From IMG/VR virus record IMGVR_UViG_2925908680_000005, positions 1-43,384 of that record: a stretch of DNA of 43,384 nucleotides; one strand, given 5' to 3'. The stretch comes from a virus (Duplodnaviria; Heunggongvirae; Uroviricota; Caudoviricetes). The notes under the pieces were generated by a model. The model made no database searches and had not been told where the DNA came from. It saw nothing but the letters and a program-made list of their open reading frames with translations. A program made the position numbers and the translations under genes. Every line of letters starts with the position of its first letter. Positions within the stretch are counted from its first letter, which is position 1. Below, in pieces: positions 1 through 39,785 of the stretch.

Positions 1-1866
1 TCACGTAGTACCCAATATAGTCGTACCATCTATGGTTTCGACTCCCGCCGGGGCCAATAATTGCTGTATCCAGCCAATAGCATGCCCTCGCTCAACGCAC
101 TGGGAGAAAAACGCACGCTGCTTTGCTCTGGTAAAGGCAACAAAAAAAGTGTTTAGCTCTTCACCCCGTTGCGGCGTAAGGCTCCACCAAGTCTGATTGT
201 CGAGCCCATAAAATATCATCGTATGGAACTCAAGACCTTTGCTTTTATGGACGGTCATCAGAGCTACCTGGCCAATACCTTCGAACTCATCCAGCGCCTC
301 CGTCCAGCTGCTGCTGTGTTCTGCACACTCTTTCAGGAGAGTGACAAATCCACTCCACACCCTCTCAAAATCTCTTGCACGCTGGTAAGCGGGAAAGGAT
401 TGCCGAAGCCTAGGGGTCCCGACAAATTCAAGAAGCATCTCTGCAATCTCTTCCGCCGAATCCGGACTAGGCTGGCGATGCGCTAGCTCTGTCCTTAATT
501 TACGGACGAATGCTTCAAGCTTAACCAGCAATCGTTCCTGCGTGAGATCGTTATCCGGATCGGCAGCCTCCAAAAACAGATAGTTCTGCTGGGTCTGCTC
601 CCAGTTTTCCGGGCTTCGCTCCGTCGCTCCCAGGCGGAGTAAAGGAACAAATATACCGGTCAGCTCTTCACCAAGCAGATCCTGTATCTGAATTTCACCG
701 ACTGACCGGGCCGCATTTCTGATCCTGAGACCTCGTGCCGCAAAAGAGGGGGCTATTTCACCCTCAACCTGATCTGCCCGCATTCTGATCAGAATCGCTA
801 CATCATGTGGTGCAACACGCTCTGACTGAACCTCACGGCTCACCCATTCAGCCAGATAATTGTTCTCGTCATCTGCGCTCCGGAATTGCCAGATAGCAGA
901 AACCTCACCTTCGATTTCACGGGTCCCTTGTGCCTGCACTTCTTCCACATTATCGTCTATCCGGCGGGCAATCTCGTGCTGAATACGAACCAGATCCACA
1001 TGTGACCGCCAGTTAGAAAGCAGTGTTATGCGTCTGGCAGCAAAGTCGTTTTCAAACTGGTCAAAGGCGTCATTCATGGCTCCCGCCCATCCCATGATAC
1101 GCTGCTTATCATCGCCGACTGCCGTAAAGACAGCATCGCTACCATCGAATGCCGTTAGCAGCATGTCATACTGGGCATAGGTGGTGTCCTGGTATTCATC
1201 AAGAAAGACGATGGGATATGTTGCCTGTAAGGCCCGGCGGATATATGAATTTTCCTGAAGCAGCAGTTTTACAAGCCTGTTTATCATCGGGAAGGACAGG
1301 GATATCTCGTCGCCCCCGAAGAATTGTTCATGCCAGTAATCTGCTAACGCACGATGTACTTCAGATCCATTTGACAAGTCAATTGGCAGGTCTGTCAGAA
1401 GCAGTCTTCTCTCAAGCTGTTGAGCACTCACTCCGTGATAGCCATGTCGCTCAATAAAATCGTCATAATCCCTACGAAACGGATTAACAATCTGATACGT
1501 ACCGGGCGCATTGAACGGCTCAGGTAAAGCCGGACGAAACCGGTCCAGAAGCCCCTTGGTAAAGGCATCAAAAGTCATCGAATCAAAGCGCCGCGCCTGA
1601 TCTCTCGGGCAACGCTTTGCAACCCTTTCGGCGAGGTTTTGGGCGGCATCTTTTTTAAAGCTGATGGCCAGAATACGTTTGGGTGCCGGACAAATACCTG
1701 TCTGCAGAAGATAGGTCGCCTTCTGTGCCAGAAACTCAGTTTTTCCGGCACCGGCACCAGCGGTCACAAGGATGCTGCTATCGGTTTCACGTAAAGCCTC
1801 CCACGCTCTCCCTTCCAGACCACCGACACCCTGAGGTACCCAGTCGTCTCTGCTTACGCGGGTCAT
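1..1866 (-). CDS. UvrD/PcrA-like superfamily-1 DNA helicase (GajB-like partner of an OLD-family nuclease)
   Basis: 621-aa ORF ending at a stop codon at the window edge; helicase motifs visible in translation: AGAGAGKT (Walker A), DEYQDT (motif II), VGDDKQRI, TVHKSKGLEF, VAFTRAK; start overlaps upstream gene stop by 4 nt. Confidence 0.8.
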   Translation of the reverse strand: MTRVSRDDWVPQGVGGLEGRAWEALRETDSSILVTAGAGAGKTEFLAQKATYLLQTGICPAPKRILAISFKKDAAQNLAERVAKRCPRDQARRFDSMTFDAFTKGLLDRFRPALPEPFNAPGTYQIVNPFRRDYDDFIERHGYHGVSAQQLERRLLLTDLPIDLSNGSEVHRALADYWHEQFFGGDEISLSFPMINRLVKLLLQENSYIRRALQATYPIVFLDEYQDTTYAQYDMLLTAFDGSDAVFTAVGDDKQRIMGWAGAMNDAFDQFENDFAARRITLLSNWRSHVDLVRIQHEIARRIDDNVEEVQAQGTREIEGEVSAIWQFRSADDENNYLAEWVSREVQSERVAPHDVAILIRMRADQVEGEIAPSFAARGLRIRNAARSVGEIQIQDLLGEELTGIFVPLLRLGATERSPENWEQTQQNYLFLEAADPDNDLTQERLLVKLEAFVRKLRTELAHRQPSPDSAEEIAEMLLEFVGTPRLRQSFPAYQRARDFERVWSGFVTLLKECAEHSSSWTEALDEFEGIGQVALMTVHKSKGLEFHTMIFYGLDNQTWWSLTPQRGEELNTFFVAFTRAKQRAFFSQCVERGHAIGWIQQLLAPAGVETIDGTTILGTT

Positions 1867-3824
1867 TCATTCTCTCCTGACAGATTAAGCTTATCCGTAA
1901 CGTACTCAATGAGCGCCCTGAGCTCTACAGGAGCGGACGCAGTAACACCGCCGCCCGCGATACGGGAAAAAGCCGCAAGGTGAGTTTCGGGCTTACTGCG
2001 GCTCAGGAACAGATACGGATACCATTTGAAAGCGTCATCATAATGCGCGGTATACAAGGCAGGATTACCACCTGTTTTCAGCGTACTGACCTTTTTGGCT
2101 TGAATAGCAGCAGCACTACTCTGGGGTCCATTGCCACCTGGATTGGCAACCTGATAAGCGGTTGGAAAGGCGAGCAACATGGCAAAATCGAGATCAATGG
2201 GATAGGAAAAGAAAACTCCTTCCCTCCTGAATGCTTGAAGCCATTGACCTTGCAGGCCTTCATTATAAAGCTGTTGGTCGGTAAGCTGAGCAGCATTAGC
2301 ACCATTGGTGCTCCCCAAATTACTCCCGATAGCGGCCAAATTCTGAAGGCAGCTTCTCATGGCATTCGCCCCACCATGTCGGCGCCCCAGATCAAGATCG
2401 AGCAAAGTGGCATGTGGAATCTCAAGATCATTCAGCAGCCGCCAGAAATGCGCTACGAACCGTCCACCGAGCGGAACGACGGGAACGAATGATGGATCAA
2501 GGGAAACACCCATCTCTTCCGCAATTTTCGGAATAACTACTCGCTCTGAGTCTCCCTCACCCAGGATTACAAATCGCGCAAAATAAAGTTCGGGGTATGC
2601 CTTTACAGCCAGCCTGACATAAACGCTTGCCTCAACATCATCTTCAGGCAGGGTCAGTTCTCGGATCGATGAGCACCGAGCGCTCCGGTCCATACGAAAA
2701 TATCTCACTTCCTCCGGCTCTATCCGGCTCAGGATAGATGGGGAATGGCTAGATAGCAGAACCTGCGCGGAAGGCAGTGCGCCAATCTCTCTCGCCTGCT
2801 TGATGATGCGAGATAAAAAGAACGGTGACAGGCTGTTTTCTGGTTCTTCGATGGCAAGAATCGTCAGGTGAATACGGCGTAACTTATCCTGTTCAAATGA
2901 GCTGTCATCAGCAGGCAAAGAAAATGCTTCCCGCTCGGTTTCGAGCGTTGCCGCTGTAAGAGCGATATGGAACAGAGAGCGCTGACCGTCACTCAGCTCG
3001 GACAAACGACGCTCCTGACCTTCTTCATCAGGCGTAAAAGTAAATTCGGCTTTACGAACAAGCTCCTCAAAACGGTTCTCGATGAGCCTTAAACGCGGTT
3101 TACTGTCTGTATCGGCCTCATGGACCTGTTGCCAACGCTTCGAAAGACGCTCCAGCAGAAACTTCGACGGCTCCTCTTCCTCGAAACTGCTCTGGATCTG
3201 ACCGGCATTAACATAGCTTGCATCCCTAAATGCCGTCGACCATTTGGCAGCCTGCCATAACCGCCCTTTTAGAAGGGCGGTCACTTGAGTCGTCGCATCA
3301 CGATTTGCCGGTAAGTAAATAAACTGGATTGAAGAGCGCTCTACAGCCTGAACCCTGGAACAGTCATCCCATTCAAAATTATCATCCAGGGCTCTTATCC
3401 AGCGTATATCCTCCTCAATTGCTCCCTCCGGCGTACCGTCATCCGTCCATGTTGCTTGTAGTCGTATCCGGGCCTTAAGGGGCTCTCCCTCACCGGAAGC
3501 CGCCATCTGATTAAAGAACTCCGGAACGGCATCAAGAGGAGAAGCGTCTTGCTCTTCCAGTTCAGGGAAGGCAAGTACCGCTTCGACAAACAGACTGTCG
3601 CCAGACTGCAGCTCCTGCCGGTCAATAGGTATGTGAAAATCTCGACGCTGTACCGATCGCTGCGCTGATGTTGTACCAAACAACCTGGACACAGCTTGCA
3701 GCACTGCCGTCTTTCCGGAGCCGTTTCCGCCGACAAGTATTGTCAGTTCTTCCTCAAAATTTAGCTCGACCACCTCATGCCCGAAACAACGAAAATTCTG
3801 TAGCTTTATCTTCTCTATTTTCAT
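1863..3824 (-). CDS. OLD-family ABC ATPase with C-terminal TOPRIM nuclease domain (GajA-like / class 2 OLD)
   Basis: 653-aa ORF; N-terminus MKIEKIKLQNFRCF with Walker A GGNGSGKT; C-terminal TOPRIM-like glutamate (ILGEGDSE) and DxD (LLDLDLG); translationally coupled to the downstream helicase. Confidence 0.8.
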   Translation of the reverse strand: MKIEKIKLQNFRCFGHEVVELNFEEELTILVGGNGSGKTAVLQAVSRLFGTTSAQRSVQRRDFHIPIDRQELQSGDSLFVEAVLAFPELEEQDASPLDAVPEFFNQMAASGEGEPLKARIRLQATWTDDGTPEGAIEEDIRWIRALDDNFEWDDCSRVQAVERSSIQFIYLPANRDATTQVTALLKGRLWQAAKWSTAFRDASYVNAGQIQSSFEEEEPSKFLLERLSKRWQQVHEADTDSKPRLRLIENRFEELVRKAEFTFTPDEEGQERRLSELSDGQRSLFHIALTAATLETEREAFSLPADDSSFEQDKLRRIHLTILAIEEPENSLSPFFLSRIIKQAREIGALPSAQVLLSSHSPSILSRIEPEEVRYFRMDRSARCSSIRELTLPEDDVEASVYVRLAVKAYPELYFARFVILGEGDSERVVIPKIAEEMGVSLDPSFVPVVPLGGRFVAHFWRLLNDLEIPHATLLDLDLGRRHGGANAMRSCLQNLAAIGSNLGSTNGANAAQLTDQQLYNEGLQGQWLQAFRREGVFFSYPIDLDFAMLLAFPTAYQVANPGGNGPQSSAAAIQAKKVSTLKTGGNPALYTAHYDDAFKWYPYLFLSRSKPETHLAAFSRIAGGGVTASAPVELRALIEYVTDKLNLSGENE

Positions 3825-3872: not shown

Positions 3873-5108
3873 CTAAATAACCCACTCATCAATCATATCA
3901 GCCCAGTCCTGCAACATAGATGTACGCTGATCACGATACTCGGCTTTGTTATATATCGCCCTCACACCTTTTTGCTCATGTGCCAGGCATTTCTCTATCC
4001 AATCGGTGTTGTAACCGGCTTCATGGAGTAAGGTACTTGCTGTACGCCTCAGATCGTGGGGTCCAAACTTGGCAAGGGACTGCCCTTCTTTCTGAGCCAG
4101 CTTGTAAGTCATCGTCATCACCCGGTTTAGCGTGGCACTGCTCATGGGCACGTCAGAATCGTAACGCGACGGCAGAACATAATCCGATCCACCGGAGAAC
4201 GTCTTCAAAGCGATGAGAATGTCCATGGCCTGCCTGGATAGAAACACCAGGTGAGGATTTCGCCGCTTCATCCTTTCTTTAGGGATCGTCCAGAGCGCTT
4301 CGCTGAAGTTGATCTCACTCCAGGTAGCATTCGTCAGCTCGCTTTTTCGCACCATCGTCAACAACAACAGTTTTACCGCTGCGCGGATCGATGGTGATGT
4401 ACCAATACGCCCCATGTACTGATACATGATCCTAATTTCTTCGGGCGTCAGGGTTCGATCTCTCGGCTCAAACCTGGCAATGCTTGCTGGCCGCACCAGG
4501 TCTGCTGGGTTCTCAACCTTCTGGCCTCGCTCAGTGGCCCAGCGGTATACCTGGAGTACAATCTCACGCGCATGAACCGCCGTAGCAGGCGCACCGCGCT
4601 CTACGATGGCGTCGGTAAGTGCTCGCAAGTCCTCGTGGGTGATTTCGGTCAGCTTCTGATTGCCGAATTTCGTTTCCAGCTCTCTCGTATAAACCGAGCG
4701 GCGCATATCACGGGTAGAGTCGGCCATCTGGTAGCCACGTAGCCACTTTTCCGCCCAGGCACCAAAGGTTTCAGCCCCTTTTACACGCGCCTTGTCCCGT
4801 GCCTTCTCCTTCGCTGGCGACTTTCCATCAGCGACCATCCGCTTGGCTTCACTAAGTCGCTCACGGGCTTCTGCCAGAGTGATACCCCCAACGCCATAGC
4901 GGCCAAAGGTGATTGTCTCTTGCCTGCCATTGATCGAGTAGTTGTAACGGAATGAGATAGAGCCGGCAGGAGTGACAGCCACATAGAGGCCATCCCGGTC
5001 ATTCACCTTGTAGAGTTTATCCCTCGGCTTGAGGTTGCGCAGCTTGGTATCGGTCAGCAAGAGTCTTATCCTTCTTCGATTCCAATACCATGCTGGAAGA
5101 TTACCCAA
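3873..5108 (-). CDS. int: tyrosine site-specific integrase (P4/CP4-57-like, DUF4102-type N-terminus)
   Basis: 411-aa ORF; N-terminal LTDTKLRNLKP...GLYVAV arm-binding-type domain; C-terminal catalytic region HDLRRTAST...AHE...Y typical of tyrosine recombinases. Confidence 0.9.
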   Translation of the reverse strand: MGNLPAWYWNRRRIRLLLTDTKLRNLKPRDKLYKVNDRDGLYVAVTPAGSISFRYNYSINGRQETITFGRYGVGGITLAEARERLSEAKRMVADGKSPAKEKARDKARVKGAETFGAWAEKWLRGYQMADSTRDMRRSVYTRELETKFGNQKLTEITHEDLRALTDAIVERGAPATAVHAREIVLQVYRWATERGQKVENPADLVRPASIARFEPRDRTLTPEEIRIMYQYMGRIGTSPSIRAAVKLLLLTMVRKSELTNATWSEINFSEALWTIPKERMKRRNPHLVFLSRQAMDILIALKTFSGGSDYVLPSRYDSDVPMSSATLNRVMTMTYKLAQKEGQSLAKFGPHDLRRTASTLLHEAGYNTDWIEKCLAHEQKGVRAIYNKAEYRDQRTSMLQDWADMIDEWVI

Positions 5109-7380: not shown

Positions 7381-7395
7381 TTACCTTTTGGGTGA
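7381..7395. promoter_or_regulatory. imperfect copy of the TTACC-N5-GGTAA palindrome (TTACC TTTTG GGTGA) about 30 bp upstream of the acyltransferase start
   Basis: read directly. Confidence 0.35.
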
Positions 7396-7424: not shown

Positions 7425-8540
7425 ATGGACATCCTTTCAATGATAAAGAATGAATTAAAATCAATCCAAATTCTTAGAGGTTTGGCGGCACTTATGGTCG
7501 TTCTATACCACTTTAGGACCGTTCTTAATTATGATAATGTCAGGATGGGTGATTATCTTTTTGGTAAGGGGTTTATTGGTGTTGATTTATTTTTCGTAAT
7601 TAGTGGATTCATAATGGCTTACACGACCAACTTGACTCATGACGCTATTGCCGATGTAAAATCATTTGCAATTAAAAGGGTTAGTAGAATATATCCTGTT
7701 CTTTTTACTTCATTTATTATTGCGTCTTTATCATTCATGAATTTTGAAAGGGTATTATCACAGTCTTTTTTTGAAACACTAAGCAGCCTTGCCTTGATTC
7801 CTACAACAAGTTCTTTGCCGCCATTTTTTATAGATACACATTCAATACTTGGTGTTAGGTGGACTTTAAATTATGAGGTATATTTCTATTCTATTTTTGC
7901 GATATCTTTATTTTTTGGAAAGAGAAGGTATTATGTTCTACTGGCATGGATTATTATGACAGTATTTTTTACTCAAATACTAATTAATGGATCATTCAGT
8001 GCCAAGGCTGTAAGCCCTAGATTTGAAAGTCCATGGTTGTCAATGATTACAAACTCTATCGTTCTTGATTTTGCAATTGGCGTTATTGTAGCAATGGCAA
8101 TTGAGGCGGGAATAATAATAAATAGAAGATTATCAATTGCCTCTTTGGTTTTTGTTGCTTATGTTTCAATGAACCAGATAGCTGTAGTAAAGGGTCACGG
8201 ACTCTCAGAGTTTGGAATGTACGCAGCAATAATTGTTTATTTATGTGTTTGCCTTGAAAAAAATGGATTTAGTTTTAATTCGCCAGCGCTAGAGCATTTG
8301 GGTAATATTTCTTATTCTTTATACCTATTGCATCTGTCGGTAAGTACATTCATCGGAATAATAGTTACAAATCTCGGAGTTAGGGAATACTTTTCAAATG
8401 GCATTTATATGGTAACACTTGTAGCCATTAGTATAATGTCAGCACACATCTCGTATAAGTATATTGAGTTATCGCTATCGAGGAGGGTAAGAGGATGGAT
8501 GATGATAAAATCTGGCATCCTTGCCAAAAATAAAAATTAA
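7425..8540 (+). CDS. acyltransferase family 3 membrane protein (O-antigen acetyltransferase-like; likely lysogenic conversion gene)
   Basis: 371 aa, multi-pass membrane protein with family-3 N-terminus (RGLAALMVVLYHF...GVDLFFVISGF); strongly AT-rich relative to flanks; opposite strand to surrounding late genes. Confidence 0.8.
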   Translation: MDILSMIKNELKSIQILRGLAALMVVLYHFRTVLNYDNVRMGDYLFGKGFIGVDLFFVISGFIMAYTTNLTHDAIADVKSFAIKRVSRIYPVLFTSFIIASLSFMNFERVLSQSFFETLSSLALIPTTSSLPPFFIDTHSILGVRWTLNYEVYFYSIFAISLFFGKRRYYVLLAWIIMTVFFTQILINGSFSAKAVSPRFESPWLSMITNSIVLDFAIGVIVAMAIEAGIIINRRLSIASLVFVAYVSMNQIAVVKGHGLSEFGMYAAIIVYLCVCLEKNGFSFNSPALEHLGNISYSLYLLHLSVSTFIGIIVTNLGVREYFSNGIYMVTLVAISIMSAHISYKYIELSLSRRVRGWMMIKSGILAKNKN

Positions 8541-30184: not shown

Positions 30185-30221
30185 TTGACATTTAACGCAC
30201 AAATTATTACCTTTCAGGTAA
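30185..30221 (+). promoter_or_regulatory. candidate promoter (TTGACA at 30185-30190) with perfect operator palindrome TTACC TTTCA GGTAA at 30207-30221, upstream of the tRNA leader
   Basis: read directly; -10 element is weak or ambiguous. Confidence 0.4.
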
Positions 30222-32412: not shown

Positions 32413-33005
32413 TGATTACCATCCTGACGTTCTTTGAGTCGCTTCCTGGCTGCTGCTATGCGATCAGCAATTGTCACATTCACATTAACATCCAGACGTT
32501 CTTTGAACGCGTTGACATCAACATGCTTACCAATCAGCTCAAGGTTCTTCACCTTGTCAGGCCATTTAATTTTTTTGAGGATTGTCTCTATCGAATCCTC
32601 GTTCATGTTCATGATGGTCGATGACAGATCAAAGCCGCTAAGCGTAGTGCGCCAGATTTTCGGCCACTCGCGGATTGGCTTAAGGCTCCCATCGTCGTTG
32701 AGGATGTCGATCACGTCCATCTGGTCGATCTCCACCAGGCGCCTGAGAACGTAATCAGCACTGACGCGCATTCGTTTGTTGCGCTCCTCCATCAGCTCGG
32801 CAATCCGTTTTTGAATGCGTTCATCGCGCATCATGACACTGGCTTTAACTGCCGCTGTATTTGGGGAGAATCCTGCGTTAATCGCTGCCTGAGTCTGGTT
32901 TTCAGGCGTTTTGATGTATGACTGGCAATAAGCCTCCTGCATTGCTGTTAGTGGCTTAAATTGCGTTGATTTACGTTTATAGGTTTTAGGTTCAGCAGGC
33001 ATCAT
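32409..33005 (-). CDS. terminase small subunit
   Basis: ORF track extends to 33083, but the first 26 codons are low-complexity and overlap a repeat/operator, so the start was taken at the internal Met pair (MMPAEPKTYKRK). Confidence 0.6.
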   Translation of the reverse strand: MMPAEPKTYKRKSTQFKPLTAMQEAYCQSYIKTPENQTQAAINAGFSPNTAAVKASVMMRDERIQKRIAELMEERNKRMRVSADYVLRRLVEIDQMDVIDILNDDGSLKPIREWPKIWRTTLSGFDLSSTIMNMNEDSIETILKKIKWPDKVKNLELIGKHVDVNAFKERLDVNVNVTIADRIAAARKRLKERQDGNQ

Positions 33006-33022
33006 AACCACCGTGGTAATAG

Positions 33023-33037
33023 TTACCGTTGTGGTAA
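33023..33037. promoter_or_regulatory. perfect operator palindrome TTACC GTTGT GGTAA at the head of the packaging/late operon, within a short direct repeat (GTGGTAATAGT x2)
   Basis: read directly. Confidence 0.55.
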
Positions 33038-33115
33038 TAGTACCATGCAAAATAAAGCCGCCATAGTTGGCGGCAGTATTCAAAACCCATCAAATTCATC
33101 ATGCATAATCTACTC

Positions 33116-33127
33116 GTGACATGTCAC
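33116..33127. repeat. palindrome GTGACATGTCAC (copy 3 of 3; 14-mer CGTGACATGTCACA)
   Basis: read directly, between the 33124 gene stop and terminase small subunit. Confidence 0.7.
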
Positions 33128-33465
33128 ACTATTAATTTCGTTTCATGCCAGCCTTTAGTCACCCAGCATTGCGAGTCACCATTGCACGGGAATGAATTCA
33201 CAGGAACTCTCTCGCCGCACTTACCGCAACGTTTTCTGCTGATCGATTTTATACGCCCGCGCACGCGTGCATCATCCTGGCGGATCAGTAACGCTATATA
33301 CTCACCAAATTCGTAAGGCGCACGCCCGGGGCGACGCGTGGCACAGTTACGCTCCAGCATTTCAATTTCCTGAGCATCAAGCACAATCTCCAGCTTACGC
33401 ACACCAGATGCAGCTTGTCTGGCTCTCTGAGCGGCTTTGCGCTCTGCTGCTGATTTAGCCATCAA
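33124..33465 (-). CDS. hypothetical protein with C-terminal Cys-rich zinc-ribbon-like segment (possible regulator)
   Basis: 113 aa; CGKCG...CNGDSQC; immediately upstream of terminase genes. Confidence 0.4.
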   Translation of the reverse strand: MMAKSAAERKAAQRARQAASGVRKLEIVLDAQEIEMLERNCATRRPGRAPYEFGEYIALLIRQDDARVRGRIKSISRKRCGKCGERVPVNSFPCNGDSQCWVTKGWHETKLIV

Positions 33466-33736
33466 TATTTACCTTTATCGCGAACACCTTTACCGGTTTA
33501 TCACCGAAGTGCGGATGTGTGATTGTCTTGATTTCATATCCGTCATACGGGACATCAATTCTGCGACTGAAGTCGTCGCGCTTCGGATATCCCTTTGTGA
33601 TAATCAGGCGGTCATACTCCCGGAACATAATTCGCTTATTCCAGTAGTCATTACACAGGCGATACTCTTCTGTTTTCTCCCCGCGAATCATGGCATCGAA
33701 GTATTCACCTTTGACAGCAAGCTGTAGGTTAGCCAT
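33455..33736 (-). CDS. hypothetical protein, possibly ASCH/PUA-like
   Basis: about 93 aa from MANLQLAVKGEYFDAMIRGEKTEEYR; family assignment is from memory only. Confidence 0.3.
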   Translation of the reverse strand: MANLQLAVKGEYFDAMIRGEKTEEYRLCNDYWNKRIMFREYDRLIITKGYPKRDDFSRRIDVPYDGYEIKTITHPHFGDKPVKVFAIKVNIDG

Positions 33737-33996
33737 TACCGCACCTCCAGTCTCCATACCGCCTGACCAATCCGGCTGGCATAGGTATCTTTGGATACTG
33801 TTCCGTCTTTAGCCATTTCCATAAGAATTTTGCGCAAATCTGCCGAACGCCATTCTTCATCAGGAAATTCCTTCTCCATTGCCAACCGCAGATTCCAGGT
33901 TGCTATCGTGAATGGATATTCCCCGCCGAGAGCTTTATCTTGCAGGGCAGCACGGGAACGCATCACCTGCAAAACCTTCTCTTTTACATCCATCAT
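33736..33996 (-). CDS. hypothetical protein
   Basis: 86 aa ORF in the same operon. Confidence 0.35.
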   Translation of the reverse strand: MMDVKEKVLQVMRSRAALQDKALGGEYPFTIATWNLRLAMEKEFPDEEWRSADLRKILMEMAKDGTVSKDTYASRIGQAVWRLEVR

Positions 33997-34568
33997 TTTG
34001 CCTCCTGCGGCGGTTCTGGTAACGGCATCCAGTGAGTTACGTCATCCAAGATATTTCCTGATAAATACGTGAAAGCCCTATATTTTTTGTAATCAATTGG
34101 ATTTACAACCCAGTTCCAATATGCGGCCACGATTTCACCTTGACTAAATGCCAGTAACATTTTGGTGTCTTCCGGCATTCGCTCACTACAGCTTATCCAA
34201 CCATCAGGAGTTACCGGAGAGTTGCCTGATAGCTCGTTCAACTTGTAAGTTTGGCTTACAGGTTCGGCTCCCAGTTCCGCTATGCGCTTTTTTGCTGTTT
34301 CCAGTTCGTTCAGCAGTGTTAGCACGGTAGCCGGATTGGCTGCGGCGATGAATTCAGCATTGGCCTGCTGTTCCATTTGGAAATCTTCATCGAAACCGCT
34401 TTCAGGATGCGCTCCTTCAATTCTGCAAATGGGGATATATCCAGCAGCCTCGCGATGAATTAGCGCATCATCACCATCAAATCGGCCCTCTCCATATTCG
34501 AGCGACCACTCGCCACACGTTGCTTTTTCTGCCTTAGCACGCAGTGCCTGATAGTCAATCTTGTTCAC
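33993..34568 (-). CDS. Ead/Ea22-like protein with C-terminal DUF551-like tail
   Basis: N-region DYQALRAKAEKATCGEWSLEYG...AAANPATVLTLLNELE is typical Ea22-like; C-terminus ends WMPLPEPP; probable GTG start at 34568 with GGGAGA ribosome-binding site (ORF track extends to 34649). Confidence 0.5.
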   Translation of the reverse strand: MNKIDYQALRAKAEKATCGEWSLEYGEGRFDGDDALIHREAAGYIPICRIEGAHPESGFDEDFQMEQQANAEFIAAANPATVLTLLNELETAKKRIAELGAEPVSQTYKLNELSGNSPVTPDGWISCSERMPEDTKMLLAFSQGEIVAAYWNWVVNPIDYKKYRAFTYLSGNILDDVTHWMPLPEPPQEAK

Positions 34569-34857
34569 TGGTTGTCTCCCTTGCTGGGCTTTCGAATGTA
34601 TCAAACTCAAACAACTTAACCACGTCATCAAACAGGACATAATCGCCATCAGAATCTTCAGTCATGTCAGCGCCACAATCCTGACCGAACGAGTCACAAC
34701 CATCCATATCAAGCTCGTATCGCTTGAGTTTTGCGATATTTGATAAATTCAGCGCCAGTACAGCCAGGTCATAAACCTCTTCGGCAGTGACATCGCTGTT
34801 CAGTCCCATTTCATGGCGATATATGATTTTTTCTACTCGTTGTTTTGTGATTGTCAT
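34555..34857 (-). CDS. hypothetical acidic protein
   Basis: 100 aa. Confidence 0.35.
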   Translation of the reverse strand: MTITKQRVEKIIYRHEMGLNSDVTAEEVYDLAVLALNLSNIAKLKRYELDMDGCDSFGQDCGADMTEDSDGDYVLFDDVVKLFEFDTFESPARETTSEQD

Positions 34858-35336
34858 TTTTGCTCGCCTCCCTGTTCTTCCAGAAAAATACGCATAGTCT
34901 CAAGCATCTCTTCGGTGTCATACGGTGACAACTTGTCACGCAGGATGTGTTCAATGCTGTTAATGAACTTGCGGATTGCTTTGCGTTCAATTTCAGCCAG
35001 GAAAGCATCGGTGGCTGGTGCTTCTGGTGCGTGCATAATTGCGACCACCATTGCGTCATGCATACAGTCAATGTTGCAACAGCCAACTGCTTCTGCTGTT
35101 TTGAACTCACGATACATGTTTTTGAACGCATCTGTTTTACACCATGCGTTTATGTCCTTAAATGCCGCATTCTCCGCCGCCAGCGCATTAGCACGCACCA
35201 GTTGCACTTCCAGTTGCGTTGCCAAATCGCTGATCAGCTTTGCCACACTACGCATATCAACGGCACCACATTCAGCTTTCAGTTCCGAAGCCATCTCATG
35301 CCCGGCGGCAACTAACCCTTTGATATTACTTTCCAT
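34854..35336 (-). CDS. hypothetical protein
   Basis: 160 aa. Confidence 0.35.
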   Translation of the reverse strand: MESNIKGLVAAGHEMASELKAECGAVDMRSVAKLISDLATQLEVQLVRANALAAENAAFKDINAWCKTDAFKNMYREFKTAEAVGCCNIDCMHDAMVVAIMHAPEAPATDAFLAEIERKAIRKFINSIEHILRDKLSPYDTEEMLETMRIFLEEQGGEQK

Positions 35337-35397: not shown

Positions 35398-36006
35398 TCA
35401 TGCCGATCTATTTTTCATCAGTGATTCATAAAACTTTTGCCACTTATGCCGACCGAAATTAGCCTTCGAGTTACAGCTAGAACAAAGGCAAATAAGGTTC
35501 TCCTGACGACAGTCTTGCTTGTCGTAATTGATGTGATGAGTTGTTAGCCTTTTGTCTGTTCCATCACAACCTGGGTTCTGACAAGTAAAACCATCTCGCT
35601 CAATAACCCTCTTGCTCGTTTCTCGGAAATCCCACGGATACGGCAATCTCGATAATCCACCAGACCAGTTTGGATTTCCTTCCCCCTTCATCAGAGAAGA
35701 ACGCATTATGTTGGAACACTGTTTCGAGCAGCATTTATGACGCTTCTCATGACTCAAGAAAACGGAGAACGAAGATCCGCATACGCAGCATATTTTTAAT
35801 ACTCGCTTTAGTTCCCGATTTACCGTCTTGCCTCGCTGTGAAATTCCTACACACTGAAGTGAGCAGAACCTTGAAGATGAGTTGGCTCGCTTAACCTGAT
35901 ATTGCCTGCCACATACGGAGCAAACCTTTTCGATTTTCCCACCCTTCCAATTCGGGTTTTTATCACCGGATACAATCAATCCCGCAGCATTGGGCTTCTC
36001 GCTCAT
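35398..36006 (-). CDS. HNH endonuclease
   Basis: 202 aa, Cys-rich with HNH-like signature (HHINYDK...N...CxxCN); AT-rich codon usage. Confidence 0.65.
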   Translation of the reverse strand: MSEKPNAAGLIVSGDKNPNWKGGKIEKVCSVCGRQYQVKRANSSSRFCSLQCVGISQRGKTVNRELKRVLKICCVCGSSFSVFLSHEKRHKCCSKQCSNIMRSSLMKGEGNPNWSGGLSRLPYPWDFRETSKRVIERDGFTCQNPGCDGTDKRLTTHHINYDKQDCRQENLICLCSSCNSKANFGRHKWQKFYESLMKNRSA

Positions 36007-36356
36007 AGTTCCTCAACCTCCCATCCACCACCGAGCTTTTTAGGTTTTGGATAAGCAACCTGAAAGACAAACGGATAGCTGTCTGCCGCAACCTTCATCT
36101 TGACTCTCGCATCGTCAGTAAAGACTGACTTACTTCCCTTAACGTCCACCATCACCAACTGCCCGTCAGCCAACATCACGGCAAAATCTACAGTCAGGAA
36201 GCAGTTGTCAGCTAACCGCAGCTTGATACCCTCGAATCGATACCAGGCGATTTCCCCTGCACGTTTACGCTGCTCAAGGTGCTGGCAATACGCAGATTCT
36301 GTTTTGTTCATCTGTCCTGTTTTGAGTCGACCAAGAGCCTGTATCTGTTTTCTCAT
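36003..36356 (-). CDS. small PD-(D/E)XK-like nuclease fold protein (VRR-NUC/DUF1064-like)
   Basis: 117 aa with D...VDVKG...K pattern. Confidence 0.35.
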   Translation of the reverse strand: MRKQIQALGRLKTGQMNKTESAYCQHLEQRKRAGEIAWYRFEGIKLRLADNCFLTVDFAVMLADGQLVMVDVKGSKSVFTDDARVKMKVAADSYPFVFQVAYPKPKKLGGGWEVEEL

Positions 36357-36359
36357 GAT

Positions 36360-36436
36360 TTACCCTTGAGGTAATTAAAAACCACATAAGACACGAAATC
36401 AATAGAGTTTAGAATATTTTGTTACCCAACAGGTAA
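36360..36436 (-). promoter_or_regulatory. internal early promoter region bracketed by two perfect operator palindromes (36360-36374 TTACC CTTGA GGTAA; 36422-36436 TTACC CAACA GGTAA)
   Basis: read directly; the proximal site overlaps the ribosome-binding region of the 36003..36356 gene. Confidence 0.55.
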
Positions 36437-36448
36437 CTATCGAGGCGT

Positions 36449-36468
36449 AAAAAAATGCGCTATCGCGC
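36449..36468 (-). terminator. short intrinsic terminator after the P-like replication gene
   Basis: GCGC-TATC-GCGC stem followed on the minus strand by a 7-nt U-run. Confidence 0.4.
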
Positions 36469-36473
36469 TGGTA

Positions 36474-37274
36474 TTACTTGATAAATCCTGCCGCCTTTCC
36501 TCGCCTGTATTCCTCCATCAGCCACTGCGCCGGTGTTATTCCCCCCAAGGTGGCGGCGTTAGGCATACACCCGAAACTTCGCCCTGGTGGATGGTAAACG
36601 TCTCTCCCTGTGTCCGGAGGCGTACTCATGGGCTCTGGCTTTGCCTGTATGCTGATCACCGGATCGGGTATCTGCTGTCCGGAAGCCACCTTTTTCGCCC
36701 AATCATCGAGCAGCCTGCGCGCGTGTTTCTCAACCTCAATCTCGCTAAGCTGGCGCTGATACATTGCACGGCGGGTATCACATACGACCCAGTACATAAC
36801 CGGATGTCGCCACGGGAATCTTTCGGGACCACCAGGATATAAACTTTTTTCCTTGCTGTACCGGTGAAACTCCGCCATCACATCGTCAATGGTAACGCCA
36901 AGAACCATCTTGCTGTCTTTACACCACTTGATAAATTGCCCTGGCGACGGCCAGAACGGAGATTCACTGGCGCGGGCGTGGCGCATACCAGCAGAAACCT
37001 GTTCACGGGTTCGGATCCCCCCTTCGGCAAACGCAGCAATCCACTGCTGTTTTGCAGCAACTTCCTGCTCTGGCGTCTTCAGGTTGGTTACCACTGCCGC
37101 CGGAAACAGTTGTTTCAGCTGTTTGAAAAGGGCATCAACAAGCCTCTCTGCTGACATGTTCACCACATTGTCATTGTTGACGTATTGATGCTCATAACCT
37201 GACATGCGAGAAAGGGCTTCTCCGTCACGGTTTTGTATCGCGGTAAAAACGTTGTTCACAAGAAATCCTCCCAC
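36474..37274 (-). CDS. replication protein P-like (helicase loader)
   Basis: 266 aa; central region (FPAAVVTNL...QWIAAFAEGGIRTREQVSAGMRHARASESPFWPSPGQFIKWC) resembles lambda P as recalled from memory. Confidence 0.7.
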   Translation of the reverse strand: MGGFLVNNVFTAIQNRDGEALSRMSGYEHQYVNNDNVVNMSAERLVDALFKQLKQLFPAAVVTNLKTPEQEVAAKQQWIAAFAEGGIRTREQVSAGMRHARASESPFWPSPGQFIKWCKDSKMVLGVTIDDVMAEFHRYSKEKSLYPGGPERFPWRHPVMYWVVCDTRRAMYQRQLSEIEVEKHARRLLDDWAKKVASGQQIPDPVISIQAKPEPMSTPPDTGRDVYHPPGRSFGCMPNAATLGGITPAQWLMEEYRRGKAAGFIK

Positions 37275-38143
37275 GCTTCAGGGCTGTTCCAGTGCGGAAC
37301 GTTGTTATCAGGTAATGTTGATTGCTTCTGTCTGCTAATCTGCAGCCGCCTTGCCAGCTTCTGCTCCCACTGTGCCTGATGGTATGCCTTACCCTCAGCC
37401 ATCCAGTAAATTCTGAACTCTGCAAGTTCCTGTGCCGTTGGCAGACTGTCCAGGTAGATCCCCTGCAATGAGCTTTTCCGAAGAAAGTCATCTGATGGCT
37501 GCCATTGTTCATGCATGACAAATTTTCCTAATTGCCCTGGCCCACCAGGAGGAACAAAGTTATTCATCACGGCGTTGTTTGCGCCGGGGTCATGAGGCAC
37601 AGAATCCCCGGTTTTTGTCCTGCTCTCCCTCTCTTGGTTAAATGACTGGTTATATGACTGGTTCTGGATCCCGTTTTTGGGATCATTCAACATCCCGTTT
37701 TTGGGATCATTCAACATCCCGTTTTTGGGATCATTCAACATCCCGTTTTTGGGATCATTCAACATCCCGTTTTTGGGATCATTCAACATCCCGTTTTTGG
37801 GTATATTCCCGTTTTCGGTAACATTACCGTTTTCGGGTTCATTACCCCCTTCCCGGTTGCCTTTAATGTTCCCGTTTTTGGTTATATTAAGAGAGAAAAC
37901 CCGCACTCTTTTCGTCGCTCCCTTTCTCTCTCCGGTATCTGAAATAAGCCCCATTTTCATGAGCGATATAAGCCCGGCCTGCACGGTTTTTTTATTCAAG
38001 CAAGTGTCTTTAACGAGGCGTTCTATGCTGGGGTAGCAGAGGTTATATTCATCGGCTCTGTCAGCCATCGAGAGCAGTATGAGCTTTAATGATGAGCTGC
38101 CTGGATCTGTCTCCCAGGCCCAATCTGTTGCATGTCTGCTCAT
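37256..38143 (-). CDS. replication initiator O-like protein with in-gene iterons
   Basis: 295 aa; N-terminal winged-HTH-like domain; central GMLNDPKN x5 peptide repeat encoded by tandem 24-bp DNA repeats. Confidence 0.7.
   Translation of the reverse strand: MSRHATDWAWETDPGSSSLKLILLSMADRADEYNLCYPSIERLVKDTCLNKKTVQAGLISLMKMGLISDTGERKGATKRVRVFSLNITKNGNIKGNREGGNEPENGNVTENGNIPKNGMLNDPKNGMLNDPKNGMLNDPKNGMLNDPKNGMLNDPKNGIQNQSYNQSFNQERESRTKTGDSVPHDPGANNAVMNNFVPPGGPGQLGKFVMHEQWQPSDDFLRKSSLQGIYLDSLPTAQELAEFRIYWMAEGKAYHQAQWEQKLARRLQISRQKQSTLPDNNVPHWNSPEAWEDFL
37666..37881. repeat. iteron array (candidate origin of replication): five perfect tandem 24-bp repeats (37681-37800) flanked by degenerate 14-25-bp copies
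   Basis: unit GATCATTCAACATCCCGTTTTTGG repeated head-to-tail five times; degenerate CCGTTTT(C/T)GG-containing copies on both sides. Confidence 0.7.
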
Positions 38144-38158
38144 GATTAATCTCCGCTA

Positions 38159-38359
38159 TCAGCTTGAATGTTGTGGGGAGGAATTAATCATGATCTGCTT
38201 AATCTCTGCCCTGATGCGACGGTTTGATTCCATGGTGCACTCAACACAGTGTCCGTTGTAAACCCAGCGCTCACTGTCATGTCCGTGCTTACATGGTTTT
38301 CCGGTGTAGTAGCGTTTAAGTCCGCGCTTTGCGGCATCAATACGTGTAATGATTTCCAT
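38159..38359 (-). CDS. small zinc-ribbon protein in the cII position
   Basis: 66 aa from the MEIITR methionine; CKHGH...CVEC. Confidence 0.35.
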   Translation of the reverse strand: MEIITRIDAAKRGLKRYYTGKPCKHGHDSERWVYNGHCVECTMESNRRIRAEIKQIMINSSPQHSS

Positions 38360-38420
38360 GGTAAGCCCTGTTATTAGTATTGGGATTACGGTTATTTTGT
38401 GCTGACACAAAAAAAAGATC

Positions 38421-38454
38421 AACCAAATTTGGTTTTTTATTACCTTTAAGGTGC
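38421..38454 (-). promoter_or_regulatory. 14-bp perfect palindrome AACCAAATTTGGTT with adjacent T-run (tR1-like position) plus imperfect operator copy TTACC TTTAA GGTGC (38440-38454)
   Basis: read directly between cro-like and cII-position genes. Confidence 0.35.
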
Positions 38455-38509
38455 GAATAGATATGAAAAGACCGCCGGATGGCGGCCTACAGAGGGTTGT
38501 GGCTGGATA

Positions 38510-38740
38510 TCATGAGTAGAAGAAGTATGCCAGTTCTGCTTTTGAGCGCAGCCATTGTCTTGTTTTACAGGCTTTAAAAAGCCCATTCATCAATACCTTA
38601 CCTGGCATTTTGCGCTTACCTGTTAAGTGAGTCTGGATATAGTGACTCGTCGTTCCGGCTTCCTGTGCGAAGGCTTCACGCTCATCCGGAGTAAGTGCAA
38701 GCCAGTGCTTTTTGAAATCGAAATGTCCGTTATCGCTCAT
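38510..38740 (-). CDS. Cro-like small DNA-binding regulator
   Basis: 76 aa, divergent from repressor gene. Confidence 0.5.
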   Translation of the reverse strand: MSDNGHFDFKKHWLALTPDEREAFAQEAGTTSHYIQTHLTGKRKMPGKVLMNGLFKACKTRQWLRSKAELAYFFYS

Positions 38741-38776
38741 AGCTATTGCCTGATATTTATTTCAGATAATAAATAT

Positions 38777-38839
38777 TCACCCATAAGGTAACAAAAATCA
38801 AGGATAGTTACCTATGGGGTGCATTTACCTGTTGGGTAA
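38777..38839. promoter_or_regulatory. tripartite operator region between cro-like and repressor genes: TCACC CATAA GGTAA (38777-38791), TTACC TATGG GGTGC (38808-38822), TTACC TGTTG GGTAA (38825-38839)
   Basis: read directly; one perfect and two one-or-two-mismatch copies in 63 bp. Confidence 0.6.
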
Positions 38840-38894
38840 TATTGCTTTAAATTGAATCATCTACTGATTCATATATGAGGCGATTTTCCAGAAA

Positions 38895-39479
38895 ATGAAA
38901 AGTATCCAGGACGTCCGCAGGCAAAATCTCAACGACTTGATCGACCGTGAATTCAATGGTGTTCAGACGCGGATGGCAGAAAAACTTGGAACTCAGGCAA
39001 ATCTGGTAAACCGCTGGGCTCTTGGCAAGAAGGTTATCGGCGACCAGGTTGCGCGAAAAATTGAAGCTGCCGCCAATAAACCCCGTAACTGGCTTGATAT
39101 CGATCGCTCGCTTTCTCAAGAAGGTTTTCAGCCTGTCGGACCAAGCGACATTGGTCAGCTGGCGGCTCACAACCTGGAACGCTGGATGAGCGAAAGCCGA
39201 GACCTTTCAACGCAGGGAAAACTTCACCGCGCATCCGGCGTCGCCCAGGTGACAATCAGCCGCCTGTTAAACAATGAGGTCAGCGTTTCCATTTCCACCC
39301 TGGAGAATGTTGCATCCGCATTCGGGCGTCACGGCTATGAATTACTGATTCACCCGCACGACCCTGCGACTATCAACTATGATCGCTCGCGCTACGCATT
39401 GTTACCTGAAACAGAGAAGGCAAAGATCGAAAGTTACATTGAATTTGTCATCAACCAGAACGAAAAAAGCAAACAATAA
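38895..39479 (+). CDS. immunity repressor-like protein with two HTH domains and no recognisable LexA-type autocleavage domain
   Basis: 194 aa; two XRE-type HTH-like segments; no Ala-Gly/Ser-Lys peptidase motif seen. Confidence 0.6.
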   Translation: MKSIQDVRRQNLNDLIDREFNGVQTRMAEKLGTQANLVNRWALGKKVIGDQVARKIEAAANKPRNWLDIDRSLSQEGFQPVGPSDIGQLAAHNLERWMSESRDLSTQGKLHRASGVAQVTISRLLNNEVSVSISTLENVASAFGRHGYELLIHPHDPATINYDRSRYALLPETEKAKIESYIEFVINQNEKSKQ

Positions 39480-39500
39480 AACTATAGTTTTCAGAAAGTA

Positions 39501-39525
39501 AGCCGCCTCATGGCGGCTTTTTTAT
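39501..39525 (+). terminator. intrinsic terminator after repressor gene
   Basis: AGCCGCC-TCAT-GGCGGCT stem followed by TTTTTTA. Confidence 0.75.
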
Positions 39526-39536
39526 TGCCCATGAAA

Positions 39537-39613
39537 TTACCTTACGGGTAATTTTTTTAACTCATATCTATTGACAACAAACCAAATACGCATAATTATT
39601 ACCTCAACGGTAA
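39537..39613 (+). promoter_or_regulatory. PL-like early promoter (TTGACA 39571-39576, 16-bp spacer, ATAATT 39593-39598) bracketed by two perfect operator palindromes (39537-39551 and 39599-39613)
   Basis: read directly. Confidence 0.6.
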
Positions 39614-39632
39614 CAAGCCGAGGTAACAAGTT

Positions 39633-39785
39633 ATGCAGTGGAAAATCATCAACGGTTGGTACTGCGTTACTGCATGCGGATTCATGAGCTGGAAGTTCCG
39701 CACATTACAGGAAGGCATTAAGTGGGCTTTCGTCAGCAAAGAAGCTCGCGATGTGGCCAACGATAACGAGATATGGGAGGGCTGA
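39633..39785 (+). CDS. small Trp/Cys-rich protein, first gene of the rightward early operon (below the ORF-track size cutoff)
   Basis: 50-codon ORF MQWKIINGWYCVTACGFMSWKFRTLQEGIKWAFVSKEARDVANDNEIWEG found by hand translation. Confidence 0.35.
   Translation: MQWKIINGWYCVTACGFMSWKFRTLQEGIKWAFVSKEARDVANDNEIWEG

What the first reader, a model, noticed from the sequence alone, without database searches (positions are those of the whole stretch)
36360..36473. Operator-bracketed internal promoter separates the nuclease/HNH genes from the replication genes
Downstream of the P-like gene there is a short terminator, then two perfect palindrome copies flanking a plausible promoter. The proximal copy overlaps the ribosome-binding region of the next gene. 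The downstream nuclease, HNH and small-gene module therefore looks like a separately controlled transcription unit.
Basis: seen in the sequence. Interest (0 to 1): 0.4.

Follow-up and report, generated by a model that had tools for sequence, protein, structure and literature searches.

The report
Repressor-bracketed internal promoter, ε15-like prophage
The gap between the replication genes and the nuclease genes of this phiV10/ε15-type prophage holds a weak terminator and a promoter bracketed by two binding sites for the phage's own immunity repressor; it is real and strongly conserved, but the same junction is already marked as a repressor site in the published ε15 genome.

Summary
The window is a phiV10/ε15-like podophage (Uetakevirus), and the genes at issue lie on the minus strand. 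After the P-like gene stop (36474) come four elements:
- a 4-bp GC hairpin plus T7 (36468..36449);
- a distal palindrome TTACC-N5-GGTAA (36436..36422);
- a -35 TTGATT, a 17-nt spacer and a -10 TTTAAT;
- a proximal palindrome (36374..36360) that covers the predicted start site and the Shine-Dalgarno, 3 nt before the ATG of a DUF1064 resolvase-like gene.

The palindrome is the phage's immunity operator. There are 9 perfect copies against 0.03 expected, including the cro/repressor and PL regions. The repressor and antirepressor are clear homologs of Salmonella phage SPC32H Rep and Ant.

The pair's 62-bp spacing and its register with the promoter hexamers are identical to PL. The layout is kept in ε15, SPC32H and Tyrion, in 78 of 80 P-anchored loci and in 31 of 32 PL-anchored loci. 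Polymorphism falls in the N5 spacers and not in the arms.

The -10 lacks the consensus A at position 2, and the terminator is weak, so the separation is probably partial.

Novelty is low. The ε15 GenBank record already annotates a repressor site at this junction, and the phiV10 record annotates the terminator.

The parts
36474..37274 (-). lambda-P-like replication gene; last gene of the upstream (PR) unit
   Evidence: Pfam PF06992, E 1.5e-56
36449..36468 (-). weak intrinsic-terminator-like hairpin GCGC-GATA-GCGC followed by A+T7
   Evidence: Sequence. Fold -8.4 kcal/mol, z -1.35. Annotated as a putative rho-independent terminator in phiV10. Stem and T-run are kept while the loop varies across relatives.
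36422..36436 (.). distal Rep operator TTACC-N5-GGTAA, centred about -62 from the predicted start
   Evidence: Perfect match. Always 12 nt after the T-run in 50 unique cassettes. Arms invariant while the N5 is polymorphic. The ε15 equivalent is annotated 'protein_bind repressor'.
36397..36402 (-). -35 hexamer TTGATT, inside the conserved CTATTGA
   Evidence: TATTG is invariant and the following A is at least 90% conserved in 50 unique cassettes. Same register as the TTGACA of PL.
36374..36379 (-). -10 hexamer TTTAAT; its last T is the first T of the proximal operator
   Evidence: 9 of 12 with a 17-nt spacer. Family consensus is T-T-W-A-A-T. Not called by the scan because position 2 is T.
36360..36374 (.). 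proximal Rep operator; covers the predicted start site (about 36367) and contains the Shine-Dalgarno AAGGG (36363..36367)
   Evidence: Perfect match. Lies 3 nt before the ATG in 44 of 50 cassettes and 5 nt in 6. The spacer is purine-rich.
36003..36356 (-). first gene of the downstream unit: DUF1064 / resolvase-like nuclease
   Evidence: PHROG 190, E 2.9e-37. Pfam DUF1064 at 23 bits is just under the 24.7 cut-off.
35398..36006 (-). HNH endonuclease gene
   Evidence: PHROG 1271, E 3.7e-23. Pfam HNH_3 is weak.
33124..35336 (-). rest of the downstream unit: six small ORFs, the last (33124..33465) a PHROG 'transcriptional regulator'
33049..33074 (-). strong terminator hairpin GCCGCC-N6-GGCGGC plus T-tail; probable end of the unit
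   Evidence: read from the sequence
38895..39479 (+). immunity repressor Rep (194 aa); the inferred ligand of the operators
   Evidence: Full-length homolog of SPC32H Rep, PDB 5D50_A, E 3.5e-42
38777..38839 (.). OR region: three operators at 38777 (1 mismatch), 38808 (2 mismatches) and 38825 (perfect), between the repressor and cro-like genes
   Evidence: PR-like TTGTTA-17-TATTAT on the minus strand
39537..39613 (+). PL cassette: two perfect operators 62 bp apart bracketing TTGACA-17-AATTAT
11026..11322 (+). SOS box TACTGTATAAATATACAGTT (11026..11045) and antirepressor gene ant (11065..11322)
   Evidence: homolog of SPC32H Ant, PDB 5D50_E, E 1.4e-46

Best explanation
This is a repressor-controlled internal promoter (here called Pint) of a phiV10/ε15/SPC32H-type temperate podophage.

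In the lysogen, the SPC32H-type repressor Rep is inferred to occupy two 15-bp operators, TTACC-N5-GGTAA. The proximal one spans about -7 to +8 and blocks RNA polymerase. It also covers the ribosome-binding site in the DNA. The distal one is centred at about -62, that is 62 bp or roughly six helical turns upstream. It probably binds cooperatively, possibly through the same Rep tetramer bending the A/T-rich promoter DNA between the sites.

A weak terminator just upstream trims read-through from PR and the replication genes. After DNA damage, LexA is inferred to release the ant promoter and Ant to take Rep off the DNA. Pint then fires together with PR and PL. It transcribes a roughly 3.3-kb unit (DUF1064 nuclease, HNH endonuclease, small genes and a putative transcriptional regulator) without needing antitermination.

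Shown here: the sequence anatomy, the identity of the motif with the OR and PL operators, the conservation and geometry, and the homology of Rep and Ant.

Inferred: Rep binding at these two sites, promoter activity, cooperativity or looping, and the induction sequence.
For: 1. Motif enrichment: 9 perfect sites against 0.03 expected. Their placement at OR and PL identifies the immunity operator.
2. Rep is a full-length homolog of SPC32H Rep and Ant of SPC32H Ant, with a canonical SOS box before ant. SPC32H Rep is reported to bind palindromic sites as a tetramer and to be removed by Ant (PMC9638917).
3. SPC32H and ε15 carry the same pair at the same junction with 62-bp spacing. The ε15 record labels the distal one 'protein_bind repressor'.
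4. The geometry is identical to PL, with a gapless alignment across operator, promoter and operator and the same register.
5. In an IMG/VR scan, 120 of 174 operator pairs are spaced 62 bp and 23 are spaced 63 bp. Of 139 unique pairs, 131 place a TTGNNN-like -35 17 nt before a -10 that ends on the operator's first T.
6. In samples chosen without using the motif at this site, 78 of 80 P-anchored loci and 31 of 32 PL-anchored loci keep both perfect operators at 62 bp.
7. Polymorphism sits in the N5 spacers and the 12-nt linker. The arms, -35, -10 and terminator are invariant.
8. The downstream gene swaps between DUF1064 and a RuvC-like resolvase while the cassette stays the same.
Against: - No transcript or binding data exist for this site, in this phage or in the literature I could reach.
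- The -10 (T-T-W-A-A-T) lacks the highly conserved A at position 2, and the scan tool does not call the promoter.
- The predicted leader is only about 11 nt.
- The terminator stem is 4 bp and is not energetically exceptional, so the unit may be largely fed by read-through.
- Bridging a 62-bp gap with one tetramer would need a sharp DNA bend. In the SPC32H Rep structure the two pairs of dimerization domains that carry the DNA-binding domains lie about 100 Å apart (PMC9986798), whereas 62 bp is about 210 Å of contour (my arithmetic).
- The motif-based IMG/VR scan required perfect arms, so those counts are biased.
Confidence: 0.78

Rival explanations
1. The operators act only as a roadblock or insulator. 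Rep bound after the weak terminator stops read-through from PR in the lysogen, there is no functional promoter between the sites, and the nuclease module is expressed only by read-through after induction.
For: The -10 lacks A at position 2 and the scan does not call a promoter. The terminator is weak, so read-through is likely. At the terS junction two operators abut the start codon without a recognisable promoter in the same register.
Against: The invariant CTATTGA -35 block and the conserved T-T-W-A-A-T sit exactly where PL has TTGACA and AATTAT. A roadblock would not need these, nor a fixed 17-nt spacer. Of 139 unique pairs, 131 keep the promoter register.
Confidence: 0.12
2. The palindromes work mainly as RNA hairpins. 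On read-through transcripts the proximal one sequesters the Shine-Dalgarno, or the distal one adds to termination. They would not work as protein-binding DNA sites.
For: Both palindromes fold as 6-7-bp hairpins in the predicted RNA. The proximal one includes the SD region.
Against: The fold is not better than shuffles (z -1.4 and -0.95). There is no Rfam match. Identical arms occur at OR, PL and other non-homologous positions, where a shared RNA role is implausible. Arms are invariant rather than covarying. A transcript starting at about 36367 would lack the 5' arm.
Confidence: 0.04
3. The interval holds a plus-strand (antisense) promoter, AAGACA-16-TAGAAT at 36388..36415, that reads back into the P gene, and the distal operator controls that promoter.
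For: It is the only promoter-like site the scan reports in the interval (9 of 12). Its -10 ends 7 nt before the distal operator.
Against: TAGAAT is not conserved. ε15 and Tyrion have GC-rich, unrelated bases at that position. Three promoter-like hits in the 3.7-kb region is below the shuffle mean of 4.5.
Confidence: 0.04
4. The sites are used mainly by the Cro-like protein (38510..38740) to turn the module down late in lytic growth, rather than by Rep. This is not exclusive with the main explanation.
For: A Cro-like repressor gene is present (PHROG 35, E 5.6e-13). In lambdoid phages Cro and CI share operators (established knowledge of lambda).
Against: Nothing here tests it. The ε15 record assigns the sites to the repressor.
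Confidence: 0.3

Closest known systems
Repressor-binding sites annotated in the Salmonella phage ε15 genome (GenBank AY150271.2; Kropinski et al. 2007, Virology 369:234, paper not readable here)
   Same: Same motif (TTACC-N5-GGTAA). Same junction: ε15 35906-35922 lies between the DnaT-like replication gene and the resolvase gene. Same 62-bp partner site, same promoter hexamer register, same upstream GCGC hairpin plus T7. Other sites fall at equivalent places, before terS, the portal region, the tailspike/ant region, and at PL and OR.
   Different: The ε15 record annotates only the distal copy at this junction and no promoter or terminator there. The proximal copy (35969-35983) is unannotated. 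In ε15 the flanking genes differ: there is no P homolog upstream, and a RuvC-like gene replaces DUF1064 downstream.
Rep-Ant switch of Salmonella phage SPC32H (PDB 5D4Z and 5D50; Kim et al. 2016 PNAS, as described in PMC9638917 and PMC9986798)
   Same: The window's Rep and Ant are clear homologs (E 3.5e-42 and 1.4e-46). An SOS box precedes ant. SPC32H has the identical operator pair before its DUF1064 gene.
   Different: The published work that I could read describes the protein mechanism (tetramer, trans pairing of DNA-binding domains, disassembly by Ant). It does not describe this internal promoter. PMC9986798 states that the structural mechanism of repression has not been extensively characterised.
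Lambda OL/OR operators with cooperative CI binding across integral helical turns (own knowledge: Hochschild and Ptashne 1986; lambda OL-OR looping)
   Same: An immunity repressor binds palindromic operators that overlap early promoters. Paired sites are spaced by about a whole number of turns (62 bp is about 5.9 turns), suggesting cooperativity through protein-protein contact.
   Different: Lambda has no CI operator at the P/ren-nin junction. It passes its terminators there by N antitermination. Here a third operator-bracketed promoter sits at that junction. Rep is unrelated in architecture to CI and is not a self-cleaving LexA-type repressor: both its Pfam-annotated motifs in phiV10 are HTH, and induction is by an antirepressor.
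Genome-wide repressor sites ('stoperators') of mycobacteriophage L5 gp71 (own knowledge: Brown et al. 1997)
   Same: The immunity repressor's site is scattered through the genome at many transcription-unit boundaries, not only at the immunity region.
   Different: L5 sites are asymmetric, orientation-dependent and mostly act as elongation blocks within operons. Here the sites are symmetric and at this locus bracket a promoter.

Membership tests
ε15/SPC32H-type Rep operator | 15-17-bp hyphenated palindrome with arms TTACC / GGTAA and a free 5-bp centre | tested here: met
   36360-36374 and 36422-36436 are perfect. The same arms occur in ε15 and SPC32H. N5 is polymorphic and the arms are invariant.
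ε15/SPC32H-type Rep operator | The same motif occupies the immunity region (between the repressor and cro-like genes) and PL of the same genome | tested here: met
   38777, 38808, 38825 and 39537, 39599
ε15/SPC32H-type Rep operator | A cognate Rep homolog is encoded by the phage | tested here: met
   38895-39479, against 5D50_A at E 3.5e-42 over residues 1-190
ε15/SPC32H-type Rep operator | Physical binding of Rep to these two sites | not testable with these tools
   Needs EMSA or footprinting. There is only annotation by analogy in ε15.
sigma-70 promoter | -35 and -10 hexamers with a 16-18-nt spacer | tested here: met
   TTGATT-17-TTTAAT, 9 of 12. The hexamers are conserved across 50 unique cassettes.
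sigma-70 promoter | A at position 2 (-11) and T at position 6 (-7) of the -10 hexamer | tested here: not met
   Position 2 is T here and in most relatives, so the scan tool does not call it. T at position 6 is present. From my own knowledge, the E. coli trp promoter has a TTAACT -10 and is functional despite the same departure.
sigma-70 promoter | A mapped transcription start | not testable with these tools
   No transcript data available
intrinsic (rho-independent) terminator | G+C-rich stem of at least 5 bp followed by a U-run | tested here: inconclusive
   The U7 run is present, but the stem is only 4 G-C pairs with a tetraloop. It scores -8.4 kcal/mol, z -1.35, and the scan does not call it. 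It is conserved in relatives with a variable loop and annotated as putative in phiV10.
DNA-looping repressor system (lac/gal/lambda type) | Two operators in helical phase, bridged by one oligomeric repressor | tested here: inconclusive
   Spacing is fixed at 62 bp (63 bp in a minority) in 143 of 174 pairs, and Rep homologs are tetramers (PMC9638917). Bridging itself is untested. A 76-bp spacing also occurs at ε15 PL and is not an integral number of turns.

The most novel reading that the evidence does not exclude
The unit 'operator, 47 bp holding a promoter, operator' may be a portable promoter clamp built for one Rep tetramer. Its two pairs of DNA-binding domains would hold sites exactly 62 bp apart and wrap the promoter between them. 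The phage uses it twice, at PL and at the replication/nuclease junction. Together with single or adjacent operators before ant, bro, terS and the portal region, this would give direct, one-step repressor control of every transcription unit, in place of the N/Q antitermination cascade of lambdoid phages. The nuclease unit ends in a putative transcriptional regulator just before the late operon, so Pint could be the gate to late transcription.
Probability: 0.3. Interest if true: 0.45.

Novelty: new member of a known kind. Interest (0 to 1): 0.22.

Why it matters
It clarifies how a common E. coli and Salmonella prophage type is wired. The cassette is present in 529 of 5426 complete E. coli genomes. 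Early genes beyond replication appear to be held off directly by the immunity repressor rather than through antitermination.

The fixed 62-bp geometry gives a concrete, testable prediction for how the structurally solved SPC32H-type Rep tetramer engages DNA, which one paper I could read (PMC9986798) describes as not extensively characterised.

In practice it supplies a compact repressor-controlled promoter module and a reliable annotation signature for this phage group. It does not reveal a new kind of regulation.

Tried and rejected
- Literature not held: the primary papers could not be opened. These are Kropinski 2007 (PMC2698709, PubMed id 17825342), Perry 2009 (by DOI), Kim and Ryu 2013 (PMC3807360) and Kim 2016 (PMC4983836). 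I therefore cannot say whether the proximal copy, the promoter or the 62-bp spacing have been described in print.
- Remembered consensus: my memory that the ε15 paper gives the consensus 'ATTACCWDWWNGGTAAT' is unverified. A full-text search for that string found nothing.
- ZX5 paper: PMC9782041 mentions four predicted promoters but gives no positions or operators.
- Promoter/terminator scan: it calls neither the minus-strand promoter nor the terminator here. Both rest on manual reading plus conservation.
- Rfam: no match in 36200-36650.
- RNA folding: not better than shuffles, so the RNA-structure reading was set aside.
- Plus-strand promoter: rejected as not conserved.
- Co-variation across immunity types: I looked for relatives with a different operator sequence, to test whether Pint operators co-vary with OR and PL. 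The 80 loci found with the P protein were 99-100% identical in P and all carried the same motif, so that test could not be made.
- phiV10 attP core: absent from the window. This element uses another integration module.

Full report
**What the window is.** Region 35900-39700 is 97-98% identical to Escherichia phage phiV10 and its relatives (genus Uetakevirus, the ε15-like podophages). The early-right genes lie on the minus strand:
- a cro-like gene, 38510..38740;
- a DnaT/O-like gene, 37256..38143, with 5.6 perfect 24-bp iterons;
- a lambda-P-like gene, 36474..37274 (Pfam E 1.5e-56);
- the interval in question;
- a DUF1064 resolvase-like gene, 36003..36356;
- an HNH endonuclease gene, 35398..36006.

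The repressor gene, 38895..39479, is on the plus strand.

**Observation.** I read the interval on the minus strand.
- The P stop codon (36476..36474) is followed by GCGC-GATA-GCGC-A-T7 (36468..36449).
- After 12 nt comes TTACCTGTTGGGTAA (36436..36422).
- Next is an A/T-rich stretch, then TTGATT (36402..36397), 17 nt, and TTTAAT (36379..36374).
- The last T of TTTAAT is the first base of TTACCTCAAGGGTAA (36374..36360).
- After 3 nt comes the ATG (36356).

The spacer of the proximal palindrome is the AAGGG Shine-Dalgarno.

The motif TTACC-N5-GGTAA occurs 9 times perfectly in the window against 0.03 expected. It occurs 13 times with at most one mismatch against 0.56 expected.

**Identity of the palindrome.**
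- The other copies sit where immunity operators are expected. Three lie between the repressor and cro-like genes (38777, 38808, 38825). Two lie just downstream of the repressor gene and bracket a strong TTGACA-17-AATTAT promoter, PL (39537, 39599).
- The repressor is a full-length homolog of Salmonella phage SPC32H Rep (PDB 5D50_A, E 3.5e-42).
- The window also encodes an SPC32H Ant homolog (11065..11322; 5D50_E, E 1.4e-46). A canonical SOS box, TACTGTATAAATATACAGTT, precedes it.
- SPC32H Rep is described as a tetramer that binds palindromic sites, with DNA-binding domains paired across dimers, and as being disassembled by Ant (PMC9638917).
- ε15 and SPC32H carry the same motif at the same set of positions.
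- The ε15 GenBank record labels seven such sites 'protein_bind: repressor'. One is at 35906-35922, between the replication gene and the resolvase gene, which is the junction studied here.

**Geometry.**
- The two operators here are 62 bp apart, exactly as at PL (39537 and 39599).
- The two cassettes align without gaps from the distal operator through the proximal operator (66 of 123 columns identical overall). They share CTATTGA at the -35.
- In both, the spacer is 17 nt and the -10 ends on the first T of the proximal operator.
- The predicted start, about 7 nt after the -10, falls at about 36367, the centre of the proximal operator. The distal operator is then centred at about -62.
- ε15 (35907 and 35969), SPC32H (35972 and 36034) and Enterobacter phage Tyrion have the same layout, including the GCGC hairpin plus T7. 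This holds even though ε15 lacks a P gene upstream and ε15 and Tyrion have a RuvC-like gene downstream.

**Breadth and constraint.**
- An IMG/VR scan for two operators 50-80 bp apart returned 174 pairs: 120 at 62 bp and 23 at 63 bp. Of 139 unique pairs, 131 have a TTGNNN-like -35 at a 17-nt spacer in the same register.
- The pairs fall into a PL class (TTGACA or TTGACT with AATTAT or GATTAT) and a Pint class. The Pint class has TTGATT or TTGAAA with TTTAAT or TTAAAT, an ATG a few nt after the operator, and the terminator upstream.
- That scan required perfect arms, so I checked samples chosen independently of this site. Of 35 loci anchored on a PL pair, 32 carried the upstream terminator motif used to locate the site. 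Of those 32, 31 have a perfect pair at 62 bp. The exception has two adjacent operators with its own TTGCAA-17-AATTAT.
- Of 80 loci anchored on the P protein, 78 have the perfect pair and 2 have one arm mismatch.
- Within those 80, the P gene is almost invariant, yet there are 58 different intergenic sequences. The variation is concentrated in the N5 spacers and in the 12-nt linker after the T-run. The arms, -35, -10 and hairpin do not vary.
- In 50 unique cassettes the distance from the T-run to the distal operator is always 12 nt. The distance from the proximal operator to the ATG is 3 nt in 44 and 5 nt in 6.

This is the pattern expected for protein-contacted arms around a non-contacted centre, and for a promoter under selection.

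**Weak points.**
- The -10 consensus across the family is T-T-W-A-A-T. The A at position 2, normally the most conserved base, is T, and the scan tool therefore reports no promoter on this strand. Functional promoters with this departure exist, for example trp with TTAACT (my own knowledge). Even so, activity here is inferred, not shown.
- The hairpin has only four G-C pairs and is not energetically unusual. It is probably a partial terminator, so the nuclease unit is likely fed both by read-through and by Pint.
- I found no transcript mapping or binding data for this site. The key primary papers were not available.

**Mechanism.**
- In the lysogen, Rep on the proximal operator would occlude the -10 and start site. 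Rep on the distal operator, about six helical turns away, would bind cooperatively. This could be through one tetramer, since Rep homologs carry a tetramerization domain of a type linked to DNA looping, with the paired dimerization domains that carry the DNA-binding domains about 100 Å apart (PMC9986798). That would require bending about 210 Å of A/T-rich DNA, which is my own arithmetic and is untested.
- On SOS induction, Ant would remove Rep, and PR, PL and Pint would fire together.
- The Pint unit runs about 3.3 kb, to a strong terminator at 33074..33049. It ends with a gene classed as a transcriptional regulator (33124..33465, PHROG 536, E 3.7e-53), directly before the late operon.
- None of the 25 proteins I scanned against Pfam or PHROGs hit an N- or Q-type antiterminator family, but I did not scan every ORF.

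**Rivals.**
- Pure roadblock role: this does not explain the conserved hexamers and fixed spacer.
- RNA-hairpin role: not supported by folding statistics, Rfam or the distribution of the motif.
- Plus-strand promoter AAGACA-16-TAGAAT: not conserved in ε15 or Tyrion.
- Use of the same sites by the Cro-like protein: likely, and compatible with the main explanation.

**Verdict.** It belongs to a known regulatory system, the ε15/SPC32H Rep operators. The junction is already marked as a repressor site in ε15, and the terminator is marked in phiV10. Three details go beyond the database records I could see:
1. the unannotated proximal operator over the start site and RBS;
2. the promoter register;
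3. the invariant 62-bp spacing shared with PL.

Interest is modest.

Noticed in passing
window 1..3824 (-), next to integrase 3873..5108 (-): An OLD-like ATPase+TOPRIM protein (1863..3824, 653 aa) and a UvrD-type helicase (1..1866, cut by the window start) lie next to the integrase. This looks like a Gabija-like (GajA/GajB) defence pair carried as prophage cargo. It rests on Pfam hits only.
   Followed up: partly
window 37668..37801: 5.6 perfect copies of a 24-bp unit lie inside the DnaT/O-like replication gene. They are probably origin iterons. They also encode the repeated PKNGMLND peptide, and the terminator scan mistook them for hairpins.
   Followed up: partly
window 10974..11322: A Rep operator (10974..10988) and a canonical SOS box (11026..11045) precede an 85-aa homolog of the SPC32H antirepressor Ant (11065..11322). 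Induction therefore looks LexA-gated through Ant.
   Followed up: yes
window 11325..11991: A third promoter uses the same register as PL and Pint: TTGAAA-17-TATATT, ending on the first T of operator 11354..11368. It lies upstream of a Bro-N-domain protein (11482..11991). It has no partner operator 62 bp upstream.
   Followed up: partly
window 33005..33074: After a strong terminator (33074..33049), two operators only 18 bp apart (33023 perfect, 33005 one mismatch) directly abut the small-terminase start codon. No promoter is visible in the PL/Pint register. How the late operon is transcribed is unclear.
   Followed up: partly
window 33124..33465 (-): The last gene of the nuclease/small-gene unit is classed as a transcriptional regulator (PHROG 536, E 3.7e-53) with no Pfam hit and a Cys-rich C-terminus. 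It sits immediately before the late operon and is a candidate late activator.
   Followed up: no
window about 36204, inside ORF 36003..36356: Homology to phiV10-type phages stops inside the DUF1064 gene. Its C-terminal part ('ADNCFLTVDFAVMLADGQLVMV') is a minority variant of the usual 'ADNTFYTPDFAVMLATGEMELH', which points to a recombination breakpoint within the gene. This variant also pushes the Pfam score just below the cut-off.
   Followed up: partly
window 7381..7395 and 7553..7567: Two one-mismatch operator copies flank the start of an acyltransferase-3 (O-antigen acetylase-like) gene, 7425..8540. That is odd for a lysogenic-conversion gene, which should be expressed in the lysogen.
   Followed up: no
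locus L082, reverse strand (IMGVR_UViG_3300012195_000011): This is a variant of the junction. Instead of the 62-bp pair, two operators 18 bp apart lie with TTGCAA-17-AATTAT around the first one, directly before a RuvC-like gene.
   Followed up: no
window 30207..30221: A single perfect operator lies upstream of the small gene preceding the portal gene. It is positionally equivalent to the ε15 repressor site 2931-2947, which overlaps an annotated IHF site.
   Followed up: no
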